Source of the DNA: an uncultured bacterium
Lineage (GTDB): Bacteria > Acidobacteriota > HRBIN11 > JAKEFK01
Reading direction: 5' to 3'
NCBI GenBank assembly: GCA_963777505.1
Contig: CAVZQN010000004.1
Location: 864,001-928,000 of the forward strand
DNA length: 64,000 nucleotides
Each line of letters begins with the position of its first letter. Positions within the stretch are counted from its first letter, which is position 1. The position numbers and the translations under genes are program-made. Below, piece after piece: positions 2,404 through 33,748 of this stretch. The notes beneath the pieces are model-generated. The model was not told the DNA's origin and did no database searches. It saw only the letters and a program-made list of their open reading frames with translations.

Positions 2404-5029
2404 GTGAGTACCATGACTCCAGAACGTTGGAAACAAATTGAACAAATCTTTTCCACTGCGGCAGAATTGCCTCAACACGAAAGAGAAAATTTCCTGAAAA
2501 CGACTTGCGCGAATGATTCCGAGTTGCGTTTTGAGGTTGAATCGCTCCTTGCGCAAGATACCGAAACTGGAACGATGATGCAGACCTTGATTTCAAAGGC
2601 TGCAGGGTCTCTTCGCAGTTCAGATCTTACAGGAAAAAGGATCGGTCCCTATCGAATCATATCTCTTACCGGTGAAGGTGGGATGGCGCAAGTTTATAAA
2701 GCTGTCAGGGATGACGATCAATATCAAAAGGTTGTCGCTATAAAAATTTTGCGACAAGACTCGGCGCCATTATTTCTTATTAGCCGATTCTGGTACGAAC
2801 GTCAAATTCTTGCGAACCTCGAACATCCTTGCATCGCTCGTTTCCTTGAAGGGGGGACAACAGAGGAAGGCATTCCGTACTTTGCTATGGAATTCATCGA
2901 AGGACAGCCAATTACAGAATATTGTGATTCGCATAACCTTACAATTCGAAAACGTCTTGAATTTGTTCAGATCCGTTTGCGAAGCAGTTCAGTACGCACA
3001 TAAAAATCTTGTCATACATCGAGATCTCAAACCAAGAAACATTTTAGTAACCGATGAAGGGGTTCCTCGATTATTAGATTTTGGCATTGCTAAATTATTG
3101 AACCCTGAAATTGGATCCGAAGTTCCGAGCGCAACAATCAGTTCAGTACGCATGATGACTCCCGATTACGCCAGCCCTGAACAAGTACGCGGGGAGAAAG
3201 TTACAACTGCTACTGATACTTATTCACTAGGTCTTGTACTTTATGAAATGCTTTCAGGAAAGAGACCTCAGGAAGTTCATACGAATTCATTTGCTGAAAT
3301 TGAACACGTTGTTTGCGAGCAGGAACCGGAACTTCCCAGCGCTGCAATACTTCACCAAAAGTCCAAAATAAATACCAAGAAATTAAGCCGTGAAATTTCA
3401 GGAGAGCTGGATAACATCGTTTCAATGGCGATGCAGAAAAATCCACTTCAACGCTATGCCACTGTGGAGCAATTTGCGGAAGATATTTCAAATTATTTAG
3501 AAGGTCGCACGATTCGAGCAAAAACACCCACACTGAGTTATCGCGTCATAAAGTTCGCGAGACGGCACCGAACTGCAGTAGCTGTGACAGCATTTGTAAT
3601 TCTTACACTTGCAGCAATTGCTGTATTAATGACAATGCAAGCGTCACGGATAGCAAAAGAGAGAGATCGCGCAAGTGAAGTCACGAAATTTCTTGTTGAG
3701 CTTTTTCAAGTTTCCGATCCAGGTGAATCGAAAGGGAATTCTGTCACTGCGCGCGAACTTTTAGACAAGAGTGCTAAGAAAATTGAAAGCGACCTTAAGG
3801 AACAGCCCGAGGTTCAGGCTGCATTGATGGAAACAATGGGTAAGGTGTATGGCAACCTTGGACTCTATAACACCGCGATCCCAATGCTGGAAAAAGCACT
3901 TGAGATTCGCAAACAAACTCTTGGTTCTAAAAGCCCGGAAATTGCAGCAACCATGAATAGTCTTGCTGGAGCTCTTCAGAATGCAGGAAAACATGATAGA
4001 GCATTAAAAATCGGAGGAGAGGCGCTCGCATTGCGTCGAAAACTCTTTGGAAATCAACACCCAAGTGTCGCTGAAAGTTTGAGTGTCACTGGCGGCTCCC
4101 TGTTTGAAAAAGGACAGCTCAAAGAAGCGGGCGCTGTGTTTCGAGAGGCATTGGCAATCCGGGAAAAAGCGTTCGGCCCTGAACACTTACTTGTGGCAAC
4201 GAGCTTATCTCAACTTGGTTTGATTCTTTCGGTAGAAGAGAAGAAAGATGAAGCAGAGCCTTTGTATCGGAGAGCACTCACGATCCGCCGAAAACTTCGT
4301 GGTGCCGATCATCACGAAATTGCAACAAGCCTGAATAACCTTGGGAGAATCCTGCTGGATAAAGGTGATTACATTGGTGCTGAAGAAATGTTTCGGGAAG
4401 CTGTGCAGCTGGATAGAAAAATATTAGGAAATGATCATCCGGATCTTGCTGTAACGCTTTCTAGTCTCGCATGGACATTGAAGGAACAAGAAGAATATTC
4501 AGAATCGGAAGAGCTTTTTCGTGAAGCACTCGCTTTGCGAAAACGGGCTCTTGATTCCCAACATCCAGCGATCGCCAGAAGCTTATACAACTTAGGTTGT
4601 ATTCTTACTGACAAAAAGGATTTCGATCAAGCTGAAACCGTATTGAAAGAAGCTCAGGAGCATTGGAAAAAAACGCTTCCTGAAATTCACGCGAACCATG
4701 CAACTTTGTTAGCCGCGATCGGAAAAGTCCAAATGGGAAAACAAAAACTGAATGAAGCTGAAACCTCATTCAAGCAAGCAATCGAAATGCGGATTCGCAC
4801 ATTGAGCGCCGATCATCCGAGTATCGCAATCGCGAAAGGGACTCTTGGAGAGTGCATGGGCTTGCAGGGCCGTTATAAAGAAGCCGAAGTCTTGCTCCTT
4901 GAATCCTACAATGCTTTGCTTGCCAAGTATCCAAAAAGTCATCCGGAGGCAAAGGAAGCACAATTACGCCTCATTTCGTTTTATACATCCTGGGGAAAAC
5001 CAACCGAAGCCGCCCGATACAAACAGTAA
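2404..5029 (+). CDS. Hanks-type Ser/Thr kinase - TM - TPR protein (one frameshift near 2962; joins ORFs 2404..3003 and 2810..5029)
   Basis: MTPERWKQIEQIF N-terminus, GEGGMAQVY, VAIK, HRDLKPRN, DFGIAK, TPDYASPE, TM helix, many HPxxAxSLxxL TPR repeats. Confidence 0.9.
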
Positions 5030-5057: not shown

Positions 5058-6944
5058 CTATCCAAGTTCGATCGGGCGTTTATGGAACACGATGCGCCAA
5101 TCCAGAATTTCATCGATCATTTTTTCCGAAATGTCATCCACGATCTGCGCAAGCGATGCAGAATCAACCGTTGATTTATTTCGAAACGTCTCCAGGTCAA
5201 CGTATTTTTCGTCAAGATATTCAGCCATCGCAACATTGTGACGTCCCACCCTTTGAAATTCTCCCTGACTGAGAATTCCTGCAAAGGCAGCACCAAAAGC
5301 AGGACAGACAATGGATAGAAGAGAAAAGGCAGTGCCTAGTTGAGGGAAATCATTCAAATAAGGCCGTATAGAAGTATTGGAGTATACAAATGGAAGGTCT
5401 TTCAATACATGCAATCCACATCCTATTGCAGCCAGGATGAACATTCCGAATGCTAAAAGATGAAGGCGATGATGGATATTTCCATTCCATGTTGCTTTTC
5501 GAAAATGATAGGCTGCTTGATGTTTTGTTTCCTGTTGAATCAAGCCTGCAACTGCCTTGAGATAATCCTGAGTGAGTTTGGTGTTTGGTAAACCAATATG
5601 TTTCGCCACACCGGAAAAATGCCAGTGAACCCAGCTTGAAGAGGGATCTTCATAGTGAGTGTGGATTGGCTCAGGTGCAGCCAATGGAGGAATCCGCCCG
5701 ATTGCTGCGAGAAAACGTGTTTGACGGAGCAACTCGGCGAGCAAACGGTAATCGATCCGTCTGTCATACCATTTGCGTGAACGATCAAAAAGATAAACAA
5801 CGATGATCGAAGCAATTGCAAATAATTCCGCAAATCCAAGCGCATGTTTATGCAGCACAAACGCAAGAAAAGCAAACAGCACAGCCAAAGCGCTCATCAA
5901 GTAGTTCCAAATAAATCCACTGTGATAGAGATTTGTATAATAACCAGCAAGAGCATCTGCAAATTCATAGTGCGGTCTGACTTTTTGTTGTATGTTTTCA
6001 ATAACCTTCGTAAGCTCTTCTCTGGCCGCAGGCGAAATGTTTTCTATGGATTGAATGGATGCGGTCCAATCTTTGGGTTGATCCTTAATTTTCTTCAGGC
6101 TCCTGTCGTAGCCGAAAACCTTATTAAATAATTTCCATAAGACTGCAAAATTCCAACTCGGAATTTTCTCAGAAAAATACATGCTCCGAAGATCAACGAC
6201 TTTTGTTGCATGATGTGCAATCTCATGTGGATCTTCTTCTTTGGGTGGAAGTATTCTTAACGCAACGGCGGCATGAAAATCCGTTTCATCCACATCTTTA
6301 AATATCTTTTCTTTTTCTATCGGATCATTCTTATCTTTCTGTCGTTCATTTTTCGATTTCGGACGGCGATAAACGACGTCATGCGGCTTATCGGGGTTGA
6401 CTTGTACGATAGGAATCGAAAACTTTTCTGCTTCTTTTACGATGTGCCCTGTACCGCCGGCACCACGCGGCTCCTGTCCATTCCAGATTGCAACTAAAAC
6501 GTCGGAATGTCTGAGTACCATTAAACCCGCAGCTTCATATGCTTGTTCTTCTTTTTCAGTAGAACCATCCATTTCAAAAATCACTGGCTCTTCGTCGCCA
6601 GGTTTATTTACGTTTTCACCGTAAATTTTTTCAGCATCCGTTGGGCTTCCAGGTTTAAAAAAAGGGAGAGGGCAGTAAAGCTTATATCCGGACTTTTGTG
6701 CTATCGAGGCTACAATTTGATCTGCTCCGTCAGCAAGTGGGGAAAGGATCTGTAAGCCATGCTCAAGACCATCTTGTTGTTTTGGAAGTGATTGAATAAC
6801 GCCTTTTAGTTTTGTGAAAATTTCATTCAGCTTTTGGTCGATCTGATCACGATCCATCTTTTGCAAGTCTTTCATTCGATGGCCGGTAACTCCGACTCGT
6901 AAGATGAATCCGTGAGACTCAGGTGATGTTCCCTTTGCTGGCAT
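5058..6944 (-). CDS. SLOG (YspA-like) nucleotide-binding domain fused to two SLATT-like 2TM effector modules
   Basis: SLOG motifs RVGVTGHR, SPLADGADQIVA, DVLVAIWNG, GGTGHIVKEA; TM pair followed by WYDRRIDYRLLAELLR (SLATT/DUF4231-like); second TM pair near the C-terminus. Confidence 0.75.
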   Translation of the reverse strand: MPAKGTSPESHGFILRVGVTGHRMKDLQKMDRDQIDQKLNEIFTKLKGVIQSLPKQQDGLEHGLQILSPLADGADQIVASIAQKSGYKLYCPLPFFKPGSPTDAEKIYGENVNKPGDEEPVIFEMDGSTEKEEQAYEAAGLMVLRHSDVLVAIWNGQEPRGAGGTGHIVKEAEKFSIPIVQVNPDKPHDVVYRRPKSKNERQKDKNDPIEKEKIFKDVDETDFHAAVALRILPPKEEDPHEIAHHATKVVDLRSMYFSEKIPSWNFAVLWKLFNKVFGYDRSLKKIKDQPKDWTASIQSIENISPAAREELTKVIENIQQKVRPHYEFADALAGYYTNLYHSGFIWNYLMSALAVLFAFLAFVLHKHALGFAELFAIASIIVVYLFDRSRKWYDRRIDYRLLAELLRQTRFLAAIGRIPPLAAPEPIHTHYEDPSSSWVHWHFSGVAKHIGLPNTKLTQDYLKAVAGLIQQETKHQAAYHFRKATWNGNIHHRLHLLAFGMFILAAIGCGLHVLKDLPFVYSNTSIRPYLNDFPQLGTAFSLLSIVCPAFGAAFAGILSQGEFQRVGRHNVAMAEYLDEKYVDLETFRNKSTVDSASLAQIVDDISEKMIDEILDWRIVFHKRPIELG

Positions 6945-6966
6945 TTAATTTTCCATGGCTCGAATT

Positions 6967-8427
6967 TTATTTTTTTAGATCATCAGCAAAGATTGCGACG
7001 CGAAAGCCTGTGTCACTGAATCTGCGTGTAAATTCTTTCCGGGTTCGTGAAGAACTACGACAAAATGCTGCGGCACTTGAATAGGAACCGCCGCGAACAA
7101 CACGATATTGCGGATCGCCATGTGTTTCCCATACCGAAGCTCCTGATGGTGATCCTTTGTAGTTTGGATGCCATGGATCCATGCACCATTCTTGCACATT
7201 TCCATGCATATCAAGAAGGCCGAAACCATTAGCTGCATCCGTGCTTCCTGAATCAAATGTTTGTTGTCTTCGTACTCCCGAAAGAGTACGACCCCACGGA
7301 GAAGTGGCATCAAAATTCGCAATGGTGGGAGAAATTGTTTCGCCGAAATGGAATGGTGTGAGGGTTCCTGCGCGGCAAGCAAATTCCCATTCTCCTTCAC
7401 TTGGCAATCGATAAGGCCTGCCAGTACGAGCTGAAAGGCGATCGCAAAATTCGATCGCTTCTTCCCATGTTATTTGTTCAACAGGACGATCTTTTCCACG
7501 GAAAAATGAAGGCTCAGAATTGAGTTCGATCTTCACTTGCGGCCAATCAGCAACCTCAGCCCATTGGGCTTGTGTAATCTCGAGACGCGAAAGAAAAAAC
7601 GAAACAACTTGAACCTGTCCTTGCGGAGTTTCGGCTTGTGCAACTTCTTTAGCTTGCAGAAGCGGTAAACCAACACGCTGTAACTCTTTTACAACCTGAC
7701 TAAACTCTGTTTCCGAAGAACCCATCCAGAAATTCCCACTTGGAAGTTCAATCATTTCCAATGATTCATTGCTTCCTAAGTCTTCCCGAAATAATCTTCC
7801 TTCGCGCTGCATTCCTCCTTTCATTACACCGGAACTATCAATCGTCGCTACTGTGAATTGAAATGTTTCAAAGCGGGCAGACGGAACGATCGCACGATAG
7901 ATTAGAAAGGCAACAACGAATGTGAAAATTGTTAACAAAAGTGCGGCAGGCAAAATCCATTTTGTAGCGGATCGAATTTGCGCAATTGTTTGATTTCCAG
8001 GAATGACCCGCTGAGGCTCTATTCTTTGGCCGGTAAGAAGTGAGTGCACATTTTCAGCAAGACGCAAAAGATGTCTGTGCAACGGTGGAGTCAGCGCGTC
8101 CAACCAGTGCGGAACACTGATGAAATACTCCAGAGATTTTGACATTGGCACATCTTCGATGCGAAAGGGGATGATTGCGAGGCCTTTGTGAACGGCTCGC
8201 TCAACTTCACGCTTCACTTCGTACGAAGAATTCGCATGATTCGAAAAAACAAGAATGAAGATTCGTGCTTGATTGATTGCTTCAATGATCGCTTCACCAC
8301 GATCGATTCCAGGCAAAATGTCACGCGGTGCAATCCAACAGCGGATACCATTTGCTTCCAGCGTTGCACAGGCTGCATCACCGACTGGCTTGTCAGGCGC
8401 GGCGTATGAAATGAAAACGTCATGCAT
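6967..8427 (-). CDS. TIR domain - TM helix - FGE/SUMF1-like (C-type lectin fold) domain protein
   Basis: DVFISY...CWIAPRDI...VKREVERA TIR; TM WILPAALLLTIFTFVVAFLIY; FWMGS, RLPSEGEWEFACRAG, NGFGLLDMHGNVQEW, RGGSY, GFRV. Confidence 0.9.
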   Translation of the reverse strand: MHDVFISYAAPDKPVGDAACATLEANGIRCWIAPRDILPGIDRGEAIIEAINQARIFILVFSNHANSSYEVKREVERAVHKGLAIIPFRIEDVPMSKSLEYFISVPHWLDALTPPLHRHLLRLAENVHSLLTGQRIEPQRVIPGNQTIAQIRSATKWILPAALLLTIFTFVVAFLIYRAIVPSARFETFQFTVATIDSSGVMKGGMQREGRLFREDLGSNESLEMIELPSGNFWMGSSETEFSQVVKELQRVGLPLLQAKEVAQAETPQGQVQVVSFFLSRLEITQAQWAEVADWPQVKIELNSEPSFFRGKDRPVEQITWEEAIEFCDRLSARTGRPYRLPSEGEWEFACRAGTLTPFHFGETISPTIANFDATSPWGRTLSGVRRQQTFDSGSTDAANGFGLLDMHGNVQEWCMDPWHPNYKGSPSGASVWETHGDPQYRVVRGGSYSSAAAFCRSSSRTRKEFTRRFSDTGFRVAIFADDLKK

Positions 8428-8439
8428 AATTAGATTGAA

Positions 8440-8547
8440 CGGAGCGCAGGCTTCCAGCCTGCATTACGGGCCGCGGACTTCCAGTCCGCCAATTCCGCAG
8501 GCAAGATGCCTGCGGCCCATAATGCGGGCAAAGATGCCCGCGCTCCG
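8440..8547. repeat. composite nested palindromic REP-like element (copy 1)
   Basis: CGGAGCGCAGGCTTCCAGCCTGC...GCGGGCAAAGATGCCCGCGCTCCG; first 50 nt identical to 33635-33684. Confidence 0.85.
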
Positions 8548-8554
8548 TATAAGC

Positions 8555-9943
8555 TCAGAAAATTTTCTTGAATTTGTCTTTTAACTTTCGGAAAAGATTT
8601 TTGCTTTCTTTTTCTGCTAACTGTTTCAACTTTTTCTCTGTCCAGGATTTCATACCAGGATCCAATTTTCCGCAGCGATCAAAATCATTTTTTGCTAATG
8701 GCAAATTTCCCTGGGACAGATAAATTGCTCCGCGATTACAATATGGCTCGGCAAAATTGGGTTCGAGCTTGATCGCCAATGTATAGTCCGTAACCGCTTG
8801 TGTAATATTTTTTAACTCCTGGTTTGACACCCCGCGAGAATTTGCCGCTTTCGCATGCTTCGGGTTTAATCGCAGCGCTTGCGTGAAATCGGAAACAGCA
8901 TCTCTATGTTTATCCAGGCTCTGATTGGTTAAGCCACGCTGATAAAATACCTCCGCCTGATTTGGATCGTATCGCAGTGCCTCGTTTAAGTCTTTTAATG
9001 CGAGCGCTTCGTTCCCTTGCTTCTTATATACCTGTGCGCGATCGCTGTAGGCTGCTGCAAAATCCGGTTTCAATCCAATTGCTTTACTAAAATCCACAAT
9101 GGCTTGATCGTAATTGCCTGAAATGCTGTAAGCCTGACCGCGATGATGATACGCTTCGGCATTTTGAGGATCCAACTGCAGTACTTTGTTGTAATCGATG
9201 ATCGCATTGGGATAGCGATCGAGTTTGTAATACGCTTGACCGCGGTAATGATAAGCATCTTCGAAATTCGGATCCTGTTGAATTGCTTTGTCAAATGATT
9301 CAATCGCTTTATCGTATTTTCCTTCCTCAAATTCTCTGACGCCTTGCGAGTAATATGGATTCTCTTGAGGTTTCGGGCGTTCAACAACTCCTTTGCTTCG
9401 CAGCAGATTCATCACATAAGGCAAACCTTTGATCAAACCGAATGTAGCAGTGAAGGCAATGAAGAGCGTGAGTATGACACTAGCAGCAATTGCTTTGCCG
9501 CTAAATTTCTTGCTTCCGAAAAGTTTTGGTTGTGATGTGCCGCGATTCAAGAGTTGCGATACTGTGTCTCCTAACAACTCAAGATGGCTTTCCTGGGGTC
9601 CCGAATATGCATCGAGATATTGCAAAGAGCCGATGTAATATTCGAGAGCCTTATCCGCAACTACATTTTGAACGCGATAAGGAAGGACCGTTACGCCTTT
9701 GTTGATTGCACGTTCTACTTCACGATGAATTTGACGCGATGCATTCGCGTGTGTAGACATTACGAGAACCATCACCGATGCTTCATTGATGGCTTCGATA
9801 ATTGCAGCGCTCCAATCTGCGCCAGGTGTGATATTGCGAGGAGCTATCCAGCAATTGATCCCGCGAGCTTCCAGAGTGACACAGATTGCGTCTGCAGCCG
9901 CGCGATCGACAGACGAATAGCTTATAAATACTTCGTGAGCCAT
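8555..9943 (-). CDS. TIR domain - TM helix - TPR repeat protein
   Basis: HEVFISY...CWIAPRNI...IHREVERA TIR; TM AIAASVILTLFIAFTATFGL; about 7 canonical TPRs (AYxxRG...AIxDFxKAIxLxP). Confidence 0.9.
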   Translation of the reverse strand: MAHEVFISYSSVDRAAADAICVTLEARGINCWIAPRNITPGADWSAAIIEAINEASVMVLVMSTHANASRQIHREVERAINKGVTVLPYRVQNVVADKALEYYIGSLQYLDAYSGPQESHLELLGDTVSQLLNRGTSQPKLFGSKKFSGKAIAASVILTLFIAFTATFGLIKGLPYVMNLLRSKGVVERPKPQENPYYSQGVREFEEGKYDKAIESFDKAIQQDPNFEDAYHYRGQAYYKLDRYPNAIIDYNKVLQLDPQNAEAYHHRGQAYSISGNYDQAIVDFSKAIGLKPDFAAAYSDRAQVYKKQGNEALALKDLNEALRYDPNQAEVFYQRGLTNQSLDKHRDAVSDFTQALRLNPKHAKAANSRGVSNQELKNITQAVTDYTLAIKLEPNFAEPYCNRGAIYLSQGNLPLAKNDFDRCGKLDPGMKSWTEKKLKQLAEKESKNLFRKLKDKFKKIF

Positions 9944-16727: not shown

Positions 16728-19403
16728 TTAATGCGAAAGTAAATAGATATCGGCTTGCATGGCTGGCTGCGCAAAAATAATTGTGGAAAGATCACGCGTA
16801 AAATCGTAACCATTCCCTTCAAAGGATAACGGAAAAGAGAAGGGCACCTTCAATGCGACCTCCGGAGATCCAATCAATTTTCCATTTTTCCAATTTGCAC
16901 GATAAAAAAGGATTTCATTATTATCACTTTCTACTGCATAAAGAAATGATTGATCATCCGGCGCGATCCGCACCATCATCGTAGGAACATCTCGAATTAA
17001 CAATATCGATTCTTTAGTCTCCAGAATTAACGAAGAAATTCCTGTCTTCTCACCTTCAGTTGCGCGGCCAATTAGATATTTACCGTCACTGGTTATATCG
17101 CCTACAACAAAGCCATTTTGAGTTACAAGTTCCATGTCTGAAGTTTCTGGTGAAACTTTCCAAATTGTACGGTCTGGATTTTGTCCTGTCCGAACGGACA
17201 TATAGATTGACTTACCATCTGACGACCAGATCATATTACTGATGTTGCCTTCCATCGGTTTTAATGCTTTGACTTTTCGGCCGTCCGCACTACCAACAAA
17301 TGGTTTATTTATATCCAGAAAAACAAAACGAGAGGAATCTCTTGTCCAGTCTCCGGTACCGATACCGGTTCCTTCACCGATTCGAATCCCCCTTGAACTT
17401 CCATCTGTGGGCGAGATCCAAAGCTGATCATTTGAATTACCAGAACCGAATTTTAAAAACATGATCATTTTGCCATCAGGGGAAATCACCGGCTGAGATG
17501 AAACTTCTTCGATGATTCTTTTGACTTCTCCTGTTTTCGAGTCATATCGAACCAATGCGCCGGATCCTCTGCCATTCACATAATAAATTCCACCGCCACG
17601 ATCGGGCATCGGCTCAAGATCAGGGCCTGGTCCGAAGGTAACCTGCGTGAACTTTTTCTTATCCAGATCAAACTTCCAAATGTTTTCGATTCCATTTTCT
17701 CGCTTACGTAAAAGAATGCTGTGATCTGGCTTATACCAAGCAAAATCTCCAGAAAAGTCGTTTATAACAGCTAAATCTTCAAAAATGCGATCATTTAGAT
17801 TCACTTTATAAATATGAGCTTCAGTCGCCGGATTCATTCGAGCGCGAACCAATAGTTGATTTGGATCAGTAAAAGGCAGGATTGTGGTTGGGACTATGTT
17901 TTCTTTAAACTCAAATACGCTCTGTTCATTAATGCCCGTCTTTTCGCTTCGATAGATTACGTTTCTACCTGCATTTTTGAAGTAATAAAGATATTTACCA
18001 TCGGAAGATGGTTCGACATTTAGGCCGGCCACAACAAACTCTGGTTTGCCGCCAAGGGTCGGTACTGCCCAGGTTTCCTCCCGGCCGAAATCCCTGCGGT
18101 AATAGATTTTCGTTCCATCTGCTGAAAAACTTGAAACAAGTTTACTCCCGACATCATTCGTGAGCTGAAGCGGTTCACCGCCTGTTGTAAGCATTACGAA
18201 CACCTGAAGTATGTTGTCTACTGGTGCACTGAATGCAATTGCATGTCCATCAGGAGAAATTCTGGATTCGATAATTTCCTTATTCCAATTGCTGATCTGA
18301 CGCACCTTTGTCGGAAGTTTTTCTTCCGGTTCCGGCCAAAATTTATATGCAGCAAAGCCTGCTGCTAAAAGAACAGCTAAAAGCCCTGCGAAGAGAAACT
18401 TCTTTTTGTTTGAAGCCGGTGGCGCGGTTCCTGTCGTTGACACTTCCGCTGGCCGAGCAATTGTTTGGGAACTTGCAACCGGCACAGAGACGGAAGCAGA
18501 ACGGCCTGAATCGATTTCCCGTTTCAACCGTTTCAAGTCAGCGCGCATTTCCGACGCAGTCTGGCATCGTACATCGCGATCTTTTTCCAGAGCTTTGCGG
18601 ATGATACGATCCAATTCAGGATGCGTTTCAGGATTTAATCTTGTTGGAGGGATCGGATCTTTATTCAGGATCGCTTCAAACACAACGGCTGAAGTTGGAC
18701 CGCTGAAAGCCTGTCGTCTTGTGATCATTTCGTATAGCACTGCCCCGAATGAAAACAGATCGGTGCGTGTGTCAATGTCTGCTCCGCGTGCCTGTTCGGG
18801 AGACATGTATGCAATTGTTCCGATTGTCATTCCTGGACTTGTCAGCGATTCAGGATTTTCTTGCGTTTGCATCGCAGATGCTTCGCCTTGCAGCGTACGG
18901 GATGGAAGTAATTTCGCGAGACCAAAATCAAGCACCTTTGCGTGACCACGTGAAGTCACAAAAAGATTTGCAGGTTTAATGTCACGATGAATTATGTTCT
19001 TGCTGTGAGCAGCATCCAGAGCATCTGAAATCTGAATGGCAAGTTCGACAATTCCTTCAGTCGAAAATTGTTTTGCTTCAATGCCATGCTTTAATGTCAT
19101 CCCTTCAAGCAATTCCATGACGATGTAATGGACGAATGGTCCGTCATTTGATCCGTTTTCACTGAGATGATCCGCGCCGATGTCGTAAATTGTGCAGATA
19201 TTGGGATGATTCAATGCAGATGCGGAACGTGCTTCGCGTTGAAGCCGTTCCAGGGCTTGTTTGTCATTGGCAAGTTCTTGCGGCAGAAATTTTAGCGCAA
19301 CTCCACGGCCAAGGCGCACATCCTCAGCGCGATAGACAACCCCCATTCCTCCGCCGCCTAGCCGCTCAATGATTCGGTAGTGCGAAATTGTCTTACCAAT
19401 CAT
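16728..19403 (-). CDS. Ser/Thr kinase - TM - TolB-like beta-propeller protein
   Basis: [38 protein letters not shown]; TM helix; SPDG/SSDG repeats. Confidence 0.9.
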
Positions 19404-33634: not shown

Positions 33635-33744
33635 CGGAGCGCAGGCTTCCAGCCTGCATTACGGGCCGCGGACTTCCAGTCCGCAATTTTCGTGCAGGCA
33701 AGGATGCCTGCGGCCCGTAATGCGGACAAGATGTCCGCGCTCCG
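33635..33744. repeat. composite nested palindromic REP-like element (copy 2)
   Basis: Near-identical to 8440-8547. Confidence 0.85.
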
Positions 33745-33748
33745 TATG

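What the first reader, a model, noticed from the sequence alone, without database searches (positions are those of the whole stretch)
5058..9943. Candidate new Thoeris-like system: two membrane-spanning TIR receptors plus a SLOG-SLATT membrane effector
Seen: three co-directional genes in the order TIR-TM-TPR, TIR-TM-FGE-like, SLOG-2TM-2TM. Only 22 bp separate the last two, and the other gap is filled by a REP element. Both TIR domains keep a Glu at the expected catalytic position (VKREVERA, IHREVERA). Established: in type I Thoeris, TIR proteins make a glycocyclic ADPR signal from NAD+ that is read by the SLOG domain of ThsA. Type II Thoeris uses a TM-macrodomain effector. SLATT is a SLOG-associated 2TM effector family. 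Inference: the TIRs here generate an NAD-derived messenger, and SLOG binding gates a 4-TM membrane-disrupting or channel effector. Unlike characterised Thoeris systems, the TIRs appear to be triggered by extracytoplasmic ligands (phage, predator or envelope damage). Two sensors feeding one effector mirrors multi-ThsB loci.
Basis: partly seen in the sequence, partly recalled or inferred. Interest (0 to 1): 0.9.

Follow-up and report, generated by a model that had tools for sequence, protein, structure and literature searches.

The report
Membrane TIR receptors with SLOG-SLATT effector
Two membrane-anchored TIR proteins with outward-facing sensor domains sit beside a membrane protein that has a nucleotide-sensing SLOG domain, which looks like a receptor-driven variant of the known Thoeris "make an NAD-derived signal, open the membrane" immune circuit.

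Summary
Three co-directional genes encode TIR-TM-TPR (8555-9943), TIR-TM-FGE-sulfatase (6967-8427) and a 628-aa protein (5058-6944). The gaps are 127 bp, filled by a genome-wide repeat, and 22 bp. The third protein's N-domain has a SLOG fold: YpsA Z 13.6, and ThsA SLOG bound to 3'cADPR at E 1e-3. Its membrane part is SLATT/DUF4231-like. This genome holds only two TIR genes and one SLOG-SLATT gene, all here. In other genomes, 40 of 80 SLOG-SLATT loci hold a TIR gene, within 1 kb in 29. Most of these TIR proteins carry a TM segment beside the TIR and an outer domain (TPR, FGE, DUF4189, PD40/WD40, CHASE2). The catalytic Glu is kept in 45 of 51 TIR domains.

The best reading is that the outer domains switch on the cytoplasmic TIRs. 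An ADPR-type signal then binds SLOG and opens or assembles the SLATT membrane effector.

This is not a new kind. TIR+SLATT is type VII Thoeris (2025 preprint) and was predicted earlier. It is a new variant, with receptor-type TIRs, a SLOG-plus-tandem-SLATT effector and no defence-island context.

Against it, half of the loci lack a TIR, and some genomes with the effector have none. Nothing has been tested experimentally.

The parts
8555..9943 (-). Gene 1: TIR-TM-TPR protein, 462 aa (P0001)
   Evidence: ORF, translation. Pfam TIR_2 at 5-116 (E 1.6e-22) and TPR_1 (E 5.8e-52, 7 stretches).
9557..9937 (-). TIR domain of gene 1 (residues 3-129); candidate catalytic Glu is E75
   Evidence: Domain limits come from the iterated TIR profile. 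The E75 column is Glu in 45 of 51 aligned TIR domains, and S69 is conserved in 45 of 51.
9434..9490 (-). Single TM segment of gene 1 (residues 152-170)
   Evidence: Kyte-Doolittle window of 19 residues scores 2.18. K+R is 4 on the TIR side and 3 on the C side.
8624..9364 (-). TPR array of gene 1 (about residues 194-440), inferred to be extracytoplasmic
   Evidence: TPR families hit. The location is inferred from the single TM and the cytoplasmic TIR.
8428..8554 (.). Intergenic repeat element (REP- or MITE-like nested hairpins)
   Evidence: 47 matches in the own genome, about 20 others near full length at 78-93% identity. RNA fold -82.4 kcal/mol, z -9.15. Sequence read.
6967..8427 (-). Gene 2: TIR-TM-FGE-sulfatase protein, 486 aa (P0002)
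   Evidence: ORF, translation. Pfam TIR_2 at 4-100 (E 1.7e-19) and FGE-sulfatase at 224-478 (E 3.7e-43). The best NCBIfam hit is periplasmic PvdO, E 1.4e-33, below its cut-off.
8044..8424 (-). TIR domain of gene 2 (residues 2-128); candidate catalytic Glu is E74
7900..7956 (-). Single TM segment of gene 2 (residues 158-176)
   Evidence: Kyte-Doolittle score 2.72.
6994..7758 (-). FGE-sulfatase (C-type-lectin-fold) domain of gene 2, inferred to be extracytoplasmic
   Evidence: In other proteins the same domain follows kinase or caspase modules.
5058..6944 (-). Gene 3: SLOG plus tandem SLATT-like membrane protein, 628 aa (P0003)
   Evidence: ORF, translation. Whole-protein model has pLDDT 88.7 and pTM 0.89. 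The family counts 4723 cluster representatives at E<=1e-30.
6240..6908 (-). SLOG domain (about residues 13-235)
   Evidence: Foldseek: YpsA 2nx2 E 1.7e-5, DprA 5e-4, BcThsA SLOG with 3'cADPR (7uxs) 1e-3. VIA: YpsA Z 13.6, DprA 11.2, TRPM2 7.9, ThsA SLOG 7.6. Invariant loop residues are G21 H22, A71 G73 D75 and G164 T165.
5700..6032 (-). First 2TM unit, SLATT/DUF4231-like (about residues 305-415)
   Evidence: NCBIfam SLATT_1 at 321-414, E 3.3e-5, below cut-off. DUF4231 or SLATT_1 hits fall on the same region in homologs. Helical hairpin in the model.
5082..5570 (-). Second 2TM unit (about residues 459-621), weakly SLATT-like
   Evidence: TM segments at 496-514 and 540-558. Weak SLATT_1 hits on the matching region of P0063 (E 3.2e-4) and P0034 (E 6.3e-3). 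hhalign of unit 1 against unit 2 is not significant.

Best explanation
This is a three-gene, receptor-driven TIR signalling module of the Thoeris kind.

Two paralogous bitopic membrane proteins hold an enzymatic TIR domain in the cytoplasm. Each exposes a ligand-binding domain outside the inner membrane, TPR repeats in one and an FGE-sulfatase/C-type-lectin-fold domain in the other. A change sensed outside is expected to cluster or re-orient the receptors. That would activate the TIRs to convert NAD+ into an ADP-ribose-derived messenger, most likely a cADPR isomer.

The messenger would bind the YpsA-like SLOG domain of the third protein. That domain would then drive its two SLATT-like TM hairpins to open or assemble, so that the inner membrane becomes permeable. 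The outcome would be growth arrest or death, or ion flux.

Shown here: the domain folds, the gene order, the conserved catalytic Glu, the N-in/C-out charge bias, and the recurrent TIR/SLOG-SLATT linkage across phyla.

Inferred: TIR activity, the identity of the signal, binding of the signal by SLOG, the effect on the membrane, the nature of the outer stimulus, and whether the module serves as phage or predator defence or as envelope-damage sensing.
For: 1. Architecture.

2. SLOG fold. The N-domain model matches YpsA, DprA, ShosA, LOG, MoCo carrier protein, BcThsA SLOG bound to 3'cADPR, and TRPM2 MHR1/2. The invariant residues of the family sit in the glycine-rich loops.

3. SLATT relation. 31 of 42 homologs hit DUF4231 and 5 of 42 hit SLATT_1. 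The positions are shown.

4. Linkage in this genome. There are only 2 TIR_2 matches and 1 SLOG-SLATT match in 5.23 Mb, and they are adjacent.

5. Linkage elsewhere. Of the 80 best loci (out of at least 550 in 185,579 species genomes), 40 hold a TIR gene within +-8 kb. The nearest TIR lies within 100 bp in 15, within 1 kb in 29 and within 2.5 kb in 36. Pfam confirmed TIR_2 in 47 of the 48 ORFs found with my profile. TIR density in these loci is 42.8 per Mb. In ten whole genomes of the window's phylum it is 0.64 per Mb, a rough comparison made with different profiles.

6. The partners are receptor-like. 27 of the 40 loci have a TIR protein with a TM-like segment beside the TIR. The outer domains are TPR, FGE, DUF4189, PD40/WD40 and CHASE2. 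In the two CHASE2 proteins the TIR lies on the cytoplasmic side in both gene orders.

7. Topology. K+R is greater on the TIR side in 23 of 26 single-TM partners, equal in 3 and smaller in none.

8. Catalytic Glu is present in 45 of 51 TIR domains.

9. The same trio, with the same upstream flank, occurs in the same-genus genome G001/L002.

10. Other recurrent partners are RyR-domain proteins: TrkA_N(+RyR), STAND-RyR and small RyR proteins. RyR domains bind or cleave 2'/3'cADPR (bioRxiv 10.64898/2026.05.28.727677, abstract read). This points to an ADPR-type ligand in this family's networks.

11. Precedent. TIR+SLATT is type VII Thoeris, with cADPR as signal and phage defence shown (bioRxiv 10.64898/2025.12.03.692087).
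Against: - 40 of the 80 loci show no TIR within +-8 kb. About 23 of them have only housekeeping-like neighbours at the +-1 positions I scanned.
- In the window's phylum, only G000 and G001 of 8 genomes with an intact full-length homolog have an adjacent TIR. G186 and G286 (93-94% complete) have no TIR_2 match at all.
- P0003 itself reaches no curated threshold for SLATT and matches nothing in PADLOC.
- The two TIRs reach no ThsB model threshold. The best ThsB hit is E 4.1e-4. ThcB4 scores 22 bits against a cut-off of 220.
- The flanks are metabolic genes, not defence genes.
- A strong hairpin repeat lies between genes 1 and 2, so co-transcription of all three genes is not assured.
- There are no expression data.
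- Between the two same-genus genomes the supposed sensors are well conserved (74-75% identity) while the effector is only 47% identical. This is the reverse of what an arms race on the sensors would give.
- SLOG domains can also be enzymes (the LOG clade), so a sensor role is an inference.
Confidence: 0.6

Rival explanations
1. Same wiring but an ordinary, non-lethal signal transduction role. The outer TPR and FGE domains read an environmental or envelope cue. The TIR product then acts as a second messenger that gates the SLOG-SLATT protein as a regulated channel, for ion or osmotic homeostasis, rather than as an abortive-infection pore.
For: - The locus lies among metabolic genes and shares its upstream flank with the same-genus genome.
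- The sensors are conserved at 74-75% identity between the two genomes.
- The same FGE domain serves as the outer module of receptor-like kinases: 9 of the 120 listed hits are kinase-FGE.
- Some family members sit beside two-component or K+-channel-like (TrkA_N) genes.
- Earlier scan notes e1-3530974 and e1-4273998 reached a similar reading in other genomes (unchecked AI notes).
Against: - The distribution is patchy: 2 of 41 relatives, and about 8 of 401 phylum genomes hold an intact full-length copy. That is typical of accessory conflict genes.
- Partners elsewhere include STAND NTPases, NB-ARC, patatin and caspase-type contexts.
- Characterised TIR+SLATT systems defend against phage.
Confidence: 0.22
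2. The TIR proteins act on their own as NAD+-depleting effectors or as scaffolds. The SLOG-SLATT protein would be an independent neighbour, or the SLOG domain an enzyme that processes nucleotides rather than a receptor for a TIR product.
For: - Many bacterial TIRs are NAD+-depleting effectors (stated in the section 5 text of 10.64898/2025.12.03.692087).
- SLOG includes enzymatic clades (LOG; PMC9503650 passage).
- The effector family occurs without TIR in half of the loci and in TIR-free genomes.
Against: - TIR density beside the effector is about 60 times the genome background.
- The gap is 22 bp here and no more than 100 bp in 15 loci.
- Partners of at least six different architectures all bring a TIR.
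- The closest structural relative of the SLOG domain is YpsA, and the cADPR-binding ThsA SLOG is also matched.
Confidence: 0.12
3. The adjacency has no functional meaning: three unrelated membrane-protein genes that happen to lie together.
For: No promoter or terminator evidence for an operon. A repeat element separates genes 1 and 2.
Against: - The only two TIR genes and the only SLOG-SLATT gene of the genome are adjacent.
- The trio is conserved in the same-genus genome.
- 40 of 80 loci from many phyla repeat the TIR linkage.
Confidence: 0.03

Closest known systems
Type VII Thoeris (TIR ThsB + SLATT effector ThsH; signal canonical cADPR). bioRxiv 10.64898/2025.12.03.692087, passages and section 5 read.
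   Same: A TIR gene lies next to a SLATT-type membrane effector. The expected logic is that a TIR product activates a membrane-breaching protein.
   Different: - Here the effector carries a separate N-terminal SLOG domain and two 2TM units. ThsH is described as binding the ligand in pockets between SLATT protomers.
- The TIRs here are bitopic membrane proteins with large outer domains, and there are two of them.
- The locus is not in a defence island.
- Homology of P0003 to ThsH could not be tested. No ThsH sequence was at hand, and the preprint's supplements are closed.
Type I Thoeris (ThsB TIR + ThsA SIR2-SLOG; 3'cADPR)
   Same: A SLOG domain acts as receiver of a TIR-made cADPR isomer. The P0003 N-domain matches the BcThsA SLOG/3'cADPR structure 7uxs (Foldseek E 1e-3, VIA Z 7.6).
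   Different: There is no SIR2 domain, and the output is a membrane part. YpsA (Z 13.6) is a closer structural relative than ThsA.
Type III Thoeris (several TIR proteins + a SLOG-containing effector; signalling uncharacterised)
   Same: More than one TIR gene with a SLOG-bearing effector.
   Different: The NCBIfam ThcB4 equivalog gives P0001 only 22.2 bits against a cut-off of 220. P0003 hits no NCBIfam effector model. I could not read the effector architecture of type III.
SLOG and SLATT families as defined by Burroughs et al. 2015 (NAR 43:10633). The paper is not held, so it is known to me from recall and from citations in PMC9503650 and PMC7159879.
   Same: SLATT was named for its association with SMODS and SLOG and was predicted to be a nucleotide-gated 2TM pore former. 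A TIR-SLATT neighbourhood is described in PMC9503650.
   Different: In the papers I could read I found no description of this roughly 600-aa SLOG plus tandem-2TM family paired with TM-anchored TIR receptors. The 2015 paper and its supplements may contain one.
PCTM systems (ParA with a C-terminal TM and a periplasmic TPR, pentapeptide or SPOR region, coupled to SLATT or caspase effectors). bioRxiv 10.64898/2026.10.19.760177, passage read.
   Same: A bitopic sensor with a periplasmic TPR-type region is paired with a SLATT effector. The authors propose detection of periplasmic or intramembrane perturbation.
   Different: The cytoplasmic module there is a ParA NTPase, not a TIR. No small-molecule messenger or SLOG receiver is involved.
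Animal TRPM2 channels and Toll-like receptors (an analogy of design)
   Same: TRPM2 has an N-terminal SLOG-fold (MHR1/2) domain on a cation channel, and the P0003 N-domain matches it at VIA Z 7.9. Toll-like receptors combine an outer repeat sensor, one TM and a cytoplasmic TIR.
   Different: There is no homology in the membrane parts. The domain order in the TIR proteins is reversed, with the TIR N-terminal. Animal TLR TIRs act mainly as adaptors.

Membership tests
TIR domain (enzymatic, NAD+-cleaving type) | Match to the TIR_2 profile over the curated cut-off | tested here: met
   P0001 scores 80.7 bits and P0002 71.0 bits, against a cut-off of 28.
TIR domain (enzymatic, NAD+-cleaving type) | Catalytic Glu in the S-x5-E position. 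The motif is recalled from SARM1, plant and bacterial TIRs. | tested here: met
   E75 (P0001) and E74 (P0002). The column is Glu in 45 of 51 aligned TIR domains.
TIR domain (enzymatic, NAD+-cleaving type) | NAD+ cleavage or cyclisation activity | not testable with these tools
   Needs an enzyme assay or LC-MS.
SLOG superfamily | Rossmann-like SLOG fold related to LOG, DprA and YpsA | tested here: met
   Foldseek ranks 1-13 are all SLOG-type structures, led by YpsA at E 1.7e-5. VIA gives YpsA Z 13.6 (rmsd 3.1 over 153 residues) and DprA Z 11.2.
SLOG superfamily | Binding of an ADPR-derived ligand | not testable with these tools
   Only fold similarity to BcThsA SLOG with 3'cADPR (7uxs).
SLATT (SMODS and SLOG-associating 2TM effector) | Match to a SLATT-clan profile over the curated cut-off | tested here: inconclusive
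   P0003 gets NCBIfam SLATT_1 at 23.9 bits against a cut-off of 41, and no Pfam hit. Of 42 homologs, 31 hit DUF4231 and 5 hit SLATT_1 at E<=0.01. Some are over cut-off, such as P0063 (DUF4231, 31.5 against 24.7) and P0058 (SLATT_1, 31.5 against 26.3).
SLATT (SMODS and SLOG-associating 2TM effector) | A two-TM hairpin preceded by a cytoplasmic helix | tested here: met
   The model has helices 305-364 and 367-390, then 459-514 and 534-561.
Thoeris type VII | A TIR gene adjacent to a SLATT-domain effector gene | tested here: met
   22-bp gap. See the SLATT rows for the caveat.
Thoeris type VII | Effector homologous to ThsH, and TIR belonging to the type VII TIR clusters | not testable with these tools
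   No ThsH or ThsB type VII sequences were available. The bioRxiv supplements are closed.
Thoeris type VII | Protection against phage; signal is canonical cADPR | not testable with these tools
   Needs experiments.
Thoeris type I | Effector with a SIR2 NADase fused to SLOG | tested here: not met
   P0003 has no SIR2 hit. Its C-terminal part is membrane helices.
Thoeris type III | TIR proteins matching the NCBIfam type III equivalog (ThcB4) | tested here: not met
   P0001 scores 22.2 bits against a cut-off of 220. P0002 has no hit.
Defence-island gene (criterion used in the 2025 Thoeris survey) | Neighbourhood enriched in known defence genes | tested here: not met
   This applies to this locus only. 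The flanks are lyase, ADH, chromate transporter and peptidase genes. PADLOC gives only generic kinase and methyltransferase hits. It was not tested for the family as a whole.
Formylglycine-generating enzyme (true FGE) | FGE-sulfatase fold | tested here: met
   PF03781, E 3.7e-43.
Formylglycine-generating enzyme (true FGE) | Catalytic Cys pair and sulfatase-maturing function | not tested
   The best curated model is PvdO, far below its cut-off (116 against 500 bits). I treat the domain as a ligand-binding module.

The most novel reading that the evidence does not exclude
A bacterial Toll-like-receptor pathway that runs from outside to inside. Extracytoplasmic TPR and lectin-fold domains detect an envelope event, such as phage adsorption, a predator or cell-wall damage, before any cytoplasmic invasion. 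They transmit it across one TM helix to an enzymatic TIR. The TIR's ADPR-derived product then gates a SLOG-coupled membrane channel. That channel would be the prokaryotic counterpart of SLOG-bearing TRPM2-type channels. It would belong to a large unnamed effector family (about 4,700 clusters at 50% identity) that also partners with RyR-domain proteins. This would make TIR/SLOG/RyR a shared ADPR-signalling toolkit of bacteria and animals.
Probability: 0.3. Interest if true: 0.85.

Novelty: new variant of a known kind. Interest (0 to 1): 0.6.

Why it matters
All characterised Thoeris sensors (ThsB) are soluble cytoplasmic proteins that respond to phage components inside the cell. A TIR that is the cytoplasmic output of a transmembrane receptor would show that bacterial NAD-derived immune signalling can be triggered from outside the cytoplasm. 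That is the logic of animal Toll-like receptors.

The effector belongs to a large, unnamed and uncharacterised family of about 600-aa proteins, with 4723 representatives at E<=1e-30. It recurs with TIR and RyR-domain partners in many phyla. Naming and testing it would annotate thousands of 'hypothetical proteins'. It would also give a tractable model for how SLOG domains gate membrane proteins, which bears on TRPM channels.

Tried and rejected
- A sequence search of the solved structures with the family profile gave only chance coiled-coil hits.
- Foldseek with the whole 628-aa model gave no hit at E<=0.001, although SLOG structures were listed at probability 1.0. I therefore folded the N-domain alone.
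- hhalign of the first 2TM unit against the second was not significant (probability 1.8%). A tandem duplication is suggested only by weak SLATT_1 hits on the second unit in 2 of the 7 homologs scanned.
- Two scans of metagenome contigs for close relatives, with P0003 and with alignment A3, found no confirmed locus. The closest homologs (44-57% identical) could therefore not be examined in context. Their linkage to TIR-FGE genes is inferred only from equal contig lengths.
- Sequencing runs: none was listed, and no RNA holder was listed.
- The promoter and terminator scan was uninformative, with 2 promoter-like sites against 8.0 expected and 5 terminator-like sites against 5.3 expected.
- Complex prediction with three copies of residues 300-628 returned no verdict (collected).
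- Burroughs et al. 2015 is not held.
- A search for ThcA/ThcB papers was swamped by cannabinoid literature.
- No held paper combines 'RyR domain' with the TIR and SLOG terms. The listed papers have 0 occurrences of 'RyR domain'.
- Search terms used for prior descriptions: SLATT+TIR+SLOG, type III Thoeris, SLATT+SMODS+SLOG, bacterial TIR+periplasmic+transmembrane+Thoeris, RyR+Thoeris+phage.
- I rejected the idea that the window lies in a defence island.

Full report
**What is there**

One search lists three minus-strand ORFs at 8555-9943 (462 aa, P0001), 6967-8427 (486 aa, P0002) and 5058-6944 (628 aa, P0003). The gaps between them are 127 bp and 22 bp.

Pfam gives P0001 a TIR_2 domain (5-116, E 1.6e-22) and a TPR array. 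It gives P0002 a TIR_2 domain (4-100, E 1.7e-19) and an FGE-sulfatase domain (224-478, E 3.7e-43). Each has a single strongly hydrophobic segment shortly after the TIR, at 152-170 in P0001 and 158-176 in P0002.

In my alignment of TIR domains from this and related loci, that column is Glu in 45 of 51 rows.

The 127-bp gap is a repeated element. It has 47 matches in the 5.23-Mb genome, and about 20 others are near full length at 78-93% identity. It folds into nested hairpins (-82.4 kcal/mol, z -9.15). Another copy lies in the window at about 33635-33747.

**The third protein**

P0003 has no Pfam hit over threshold, no PADLOC hit, and only a sub-threshold NCBIfam SLATT_1 match (321-414, 23.9 bits against 41).

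It belongs to a large family of about 600-aa proteins. A word-seeded search found 158 hits. The exhaustive profile search found 4723 cluster representatives at E<=1e-30. Of 42 aligned members, 31 hit DUF4231 and 5 hit SLATT_1, on the first TM hairpin. The second hairpin gives only weak SLATT_1 hits in two homologs. An hhalign of the two units is not significant.

AlphaFold models are confident (pLDDT 88.7 for the whole protein and 88.3 for the N-domain). With the N-domain alone, Foldseek ranks 1-13 are all SLOG-superfamily structures. These include YpsA (E 1.7e-5), DprA, ShosA, TM1055, the BcThsA SLOG domain bound to 3'cADPR (E 1e-3) and MoCo-binding proteins. The Foldseek-independent VIA search gives YpsA Z 13.6, DprA 11.2, TRPM2 MHR1/2 7.9 and ThsA SLOG 7.6.

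The 'SLOG-2TM-2TM' reading is therefore right. The SLOG call rests on fold, and the SLATT call rests on family-level profile hits.

**Is the adjacency meaningful?**

In this genome the only two TIR_2 matches and the only SLOG-SLATT match are these three genes.

A scan of one genome per species found at least 550 loci that encode a relative, and the best 80 were kept. With a TIR profile iterated on the ORFs of these loci, 40 of 80 loci hold a TIR ORF within +-8 kb. The nearest one lies within 100 bp in 15, within 1 kb in 29 and within 2.5 kb in 36. It is on the same strand in 23. Pfam confirmed TIR_2 in 47 of the 48 ORFs. The exception is the upstream half of a split GAF-cyclase-TIR gene in L017.

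TIR density is 42.8 per Mb of locus DNA. In ten whole genomes of the window's phylum it is 0.64 per Mb. This is a rough comparison, because the profiles differ and related genomes are not independent.

The partners have many architectures:
- TIR-TM-TPR plus TIR-TM-FGE (L002, the same trio as here)
- TIR-TM-DUF4189 (L003, L004, L005, L024)
- TIR-TM-PD40/WD40 (L023, L046)
- TIR with CHASE2, in both orders (L041, L079)
- long TIR-TM-TPR proteins in sphingomonads
- cytoplasmic types: TIR-AAA_35, TIR-NB-ARC-TPR, X-TIR next to nSTAND1-TPR, TIR-PNP

In 27 of the 40 loci a TIR protein has a TM-like segment beside the TIR. Among 26 single-TM cases (the window's two included), K+R is higher on the TIR side in 23, equal in 3 and lower in none. 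This fits TIR inside and C-terminal domain outside.

The FGE domain of P0002 is most like periplasmic PvdO. In other proteins the same domain follows kinase (9 of 120 listed hits) or caspase (8 of 120) modules, and 55 of 120 carry TIR_2. It therefore behaves as a general outer sensor module.

**What speaks against a fixed TIR-effector pair**

Forty of the 80 loci have no TIR in reach. I scanned only the +-1 neighbours in those loci, and about 23 show only housekeeping-like genes.

In a sample of 401 genomes of the window's phylum, 19 have a match. About 8 hold an intact full-length gene, one is degenerate, and the rest are SLOG-only proteins. Only G000 and the same-genus G001 have adjacent TIRs. 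G137 has one 9 kb away. G207, G139 and G399 have TIRs on other contigs. G186 and G286 have no TIR_2 match at all.

In G186 and G286 the gene 9-12 bp upstream encodes an ~877-aa protein with RyR domains. Across the 80 loci, a ~670-aa TrkA_N(+RyR) protein lies directly downstream in 11, and upstream in L012. A small RyR protein lies upstream in L011 and L013. RyR domains were recently shown to bind or cleave 2'/3'cADPR (abstract read). These partners therefore still point to ADPR-type ligands. They also show that the effector family is wired to more than TIR receptors.

**Context and evolution**

The flanks are metabolic genes (fumarase-like lyase, ADH, chromate transporter and others). PADLOC finds only generic kinase and methyltransferase similarity. 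This is not a defence island.

The same-genus genome shares the upstream flank (lyase 80% identical, ADH 71%) and the trio. Its TIR receptors are 74-75% identical, but its effector is only 47% identical along its whole length.

The same pattern shows in metagenomic proteins. TIR-FGE homologs of 75-87% identity lie on contigs whose lengths equal those of SLOG-SLATT homologs of 46-57% identity (that they are the same contigs is inferred).

The full-length gene was found in 2 of 41 relatives. This patchy spread fits an accessory module. I have no explanation for the fast-evolving effector beside conserved sensors.

**Mechanism**

The best-supported reading (confidence 0.6) is the Thoeris logic with a receptor front end. 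Outer TPR and lectin-fold domains sense something outside. The cytoplasmic TIRs then make an ADPR-derived nucleotide. The YpsA-like SLOG domain binds it, and the SLATT-like hairpins permeabilise the membrane.

Folds, order, linkage, charge bias and the catalytic Glu are shown here. Enzyme activity, ligand, gating, stimulus and biological role are inferred. The main rival keeps the wiring but makes it ordinary, non-lethal signalling (0.22). The remaining rivals are TIRs acting alone or SLOG acting as an enzyme (0.12), and chance adjacency (0.03).

**Comparison with what is known**

TIR+SLATT is type VII Thoeris (ThsH, canonical cADPR, phage defence shown). Type III is several TIRs with a SLOG effector, and type I uses SLOG to read 3'cADPR (10.64898/2025.12.03.692087, passages and section 5).

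Aravind's group described TIR-SLATT neighbourhoods and predicted an ADPr-derivative-gated SLATT (PMC9503650 and PMC7159879, passages). The founding 2015 paper is not held, so I rely on recall and on those citations.

A 2026 preprint describes ParA-TM-periplasmic-TPR sensors paired with SLATT and proposes periplasmic sensing.

The kind is therefore known. What differs here is the combination: TM-anchored TIR receptors, a SLOG plus tandem-2TM effector, and a non-island context. In the papers I could search I found no description of this combination. The closed supplements of the 2025 preprint, which list 29 putative types, may include it.

Earlier notes of this scan report related SLOG-SLATT, TIR and RyR modules in other genomes. 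They are unchecked AI notes, and I use them only as leads.

**Verdict**

This is a new variant of a known kind. Interest is 0.6.

Noticed in passing
window 8428-8554; another copy at about window 33635-33747 (G000:C4:897635-897747): A ~110-bp palindromic repeat family with 47 matches in the genome, about 20 of them near full length at 78-93% identity, plus many half copies. It folds into nested hairpins (z -9.15). It is inserted between the two TIR genes here. In the same-genus genome the corresponding gap is 71 bp.
   Followed up: partly
L030-L033, L039, L045, L047, L052, L056, L058, L063 (directly downstream of the SLOG-SLATT gene); L012; L011 and L013; L087:3793-6432; L088:3509-6139; L089:12765-14786: RyR-domain and TrkA_N proteins are the second most frequent partners of the SLOG-SLATT family. 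They come as ~670-aa TrkA_N(+RyR) proteins, ~877-aa STAND-like RyR proteins and ~110-aa RyR proteins. In two cases the genome has no TIR_2 match at all. RyR domains were recently shown to bind or cleave cADPR isomers.
   Followed up: partly
window 5058-6944 compared with L002:8001-9845: Between two genomes of one genus the effector is 47% identical, while the two TIR receptors are 74-75% identical and the flanking lyase 80%. This is the reverse of the usual pattern of a fast sensor and a conserved effector. I have no explanation.
   Followed up: partly
window 2810-5029 (+) and 16728-19403 (-): Two Ser/Thr kinase genes with sensor-type C-terminal parts: kinase-TPR, convergent with the effector gene and ending 28 bp from it, and kinase-PD40. 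Kinase genes also lie near the effector in L021 and L037. Whether they belong to the module is unknown.
   Followed up: no
L026, L028, L036, L054 (Marinicaulis), directly downstream of the SLOG-SLATT gene: 626-729-aa proteins with a C-terminal FGE-sulfatase domain and an N-terminal ~400 aa that neither Pfam nor my TIR profile recognises. They may carry a divergent TIR-like or other signal-generating domain.
   Followed up: no
L019, L041, L070, L076: A patatin-like phospholipase gene lies next to the SLOG-SLATT gene in four scanned loci. It may be a second effector.
   Followed up: no
L032:12968-16105, L039:11839-16263, L045:6061-9994, L089:14932-19001: A recurrent 1045-1474-aa protein with no Pfam hit lies downstream of the TrkA_N gene in Acidobacteriaceae-type loci (a cluster of 7 loci).
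   Followed up: no
G006, G009, G005, G220, G244 and others: Stand-alone proteins of ~190-200 aa, and others of 370-405 aa, match only the SLOG part of the family profile. They occur in relatives that lack the full-length gene.
   Followed up: no
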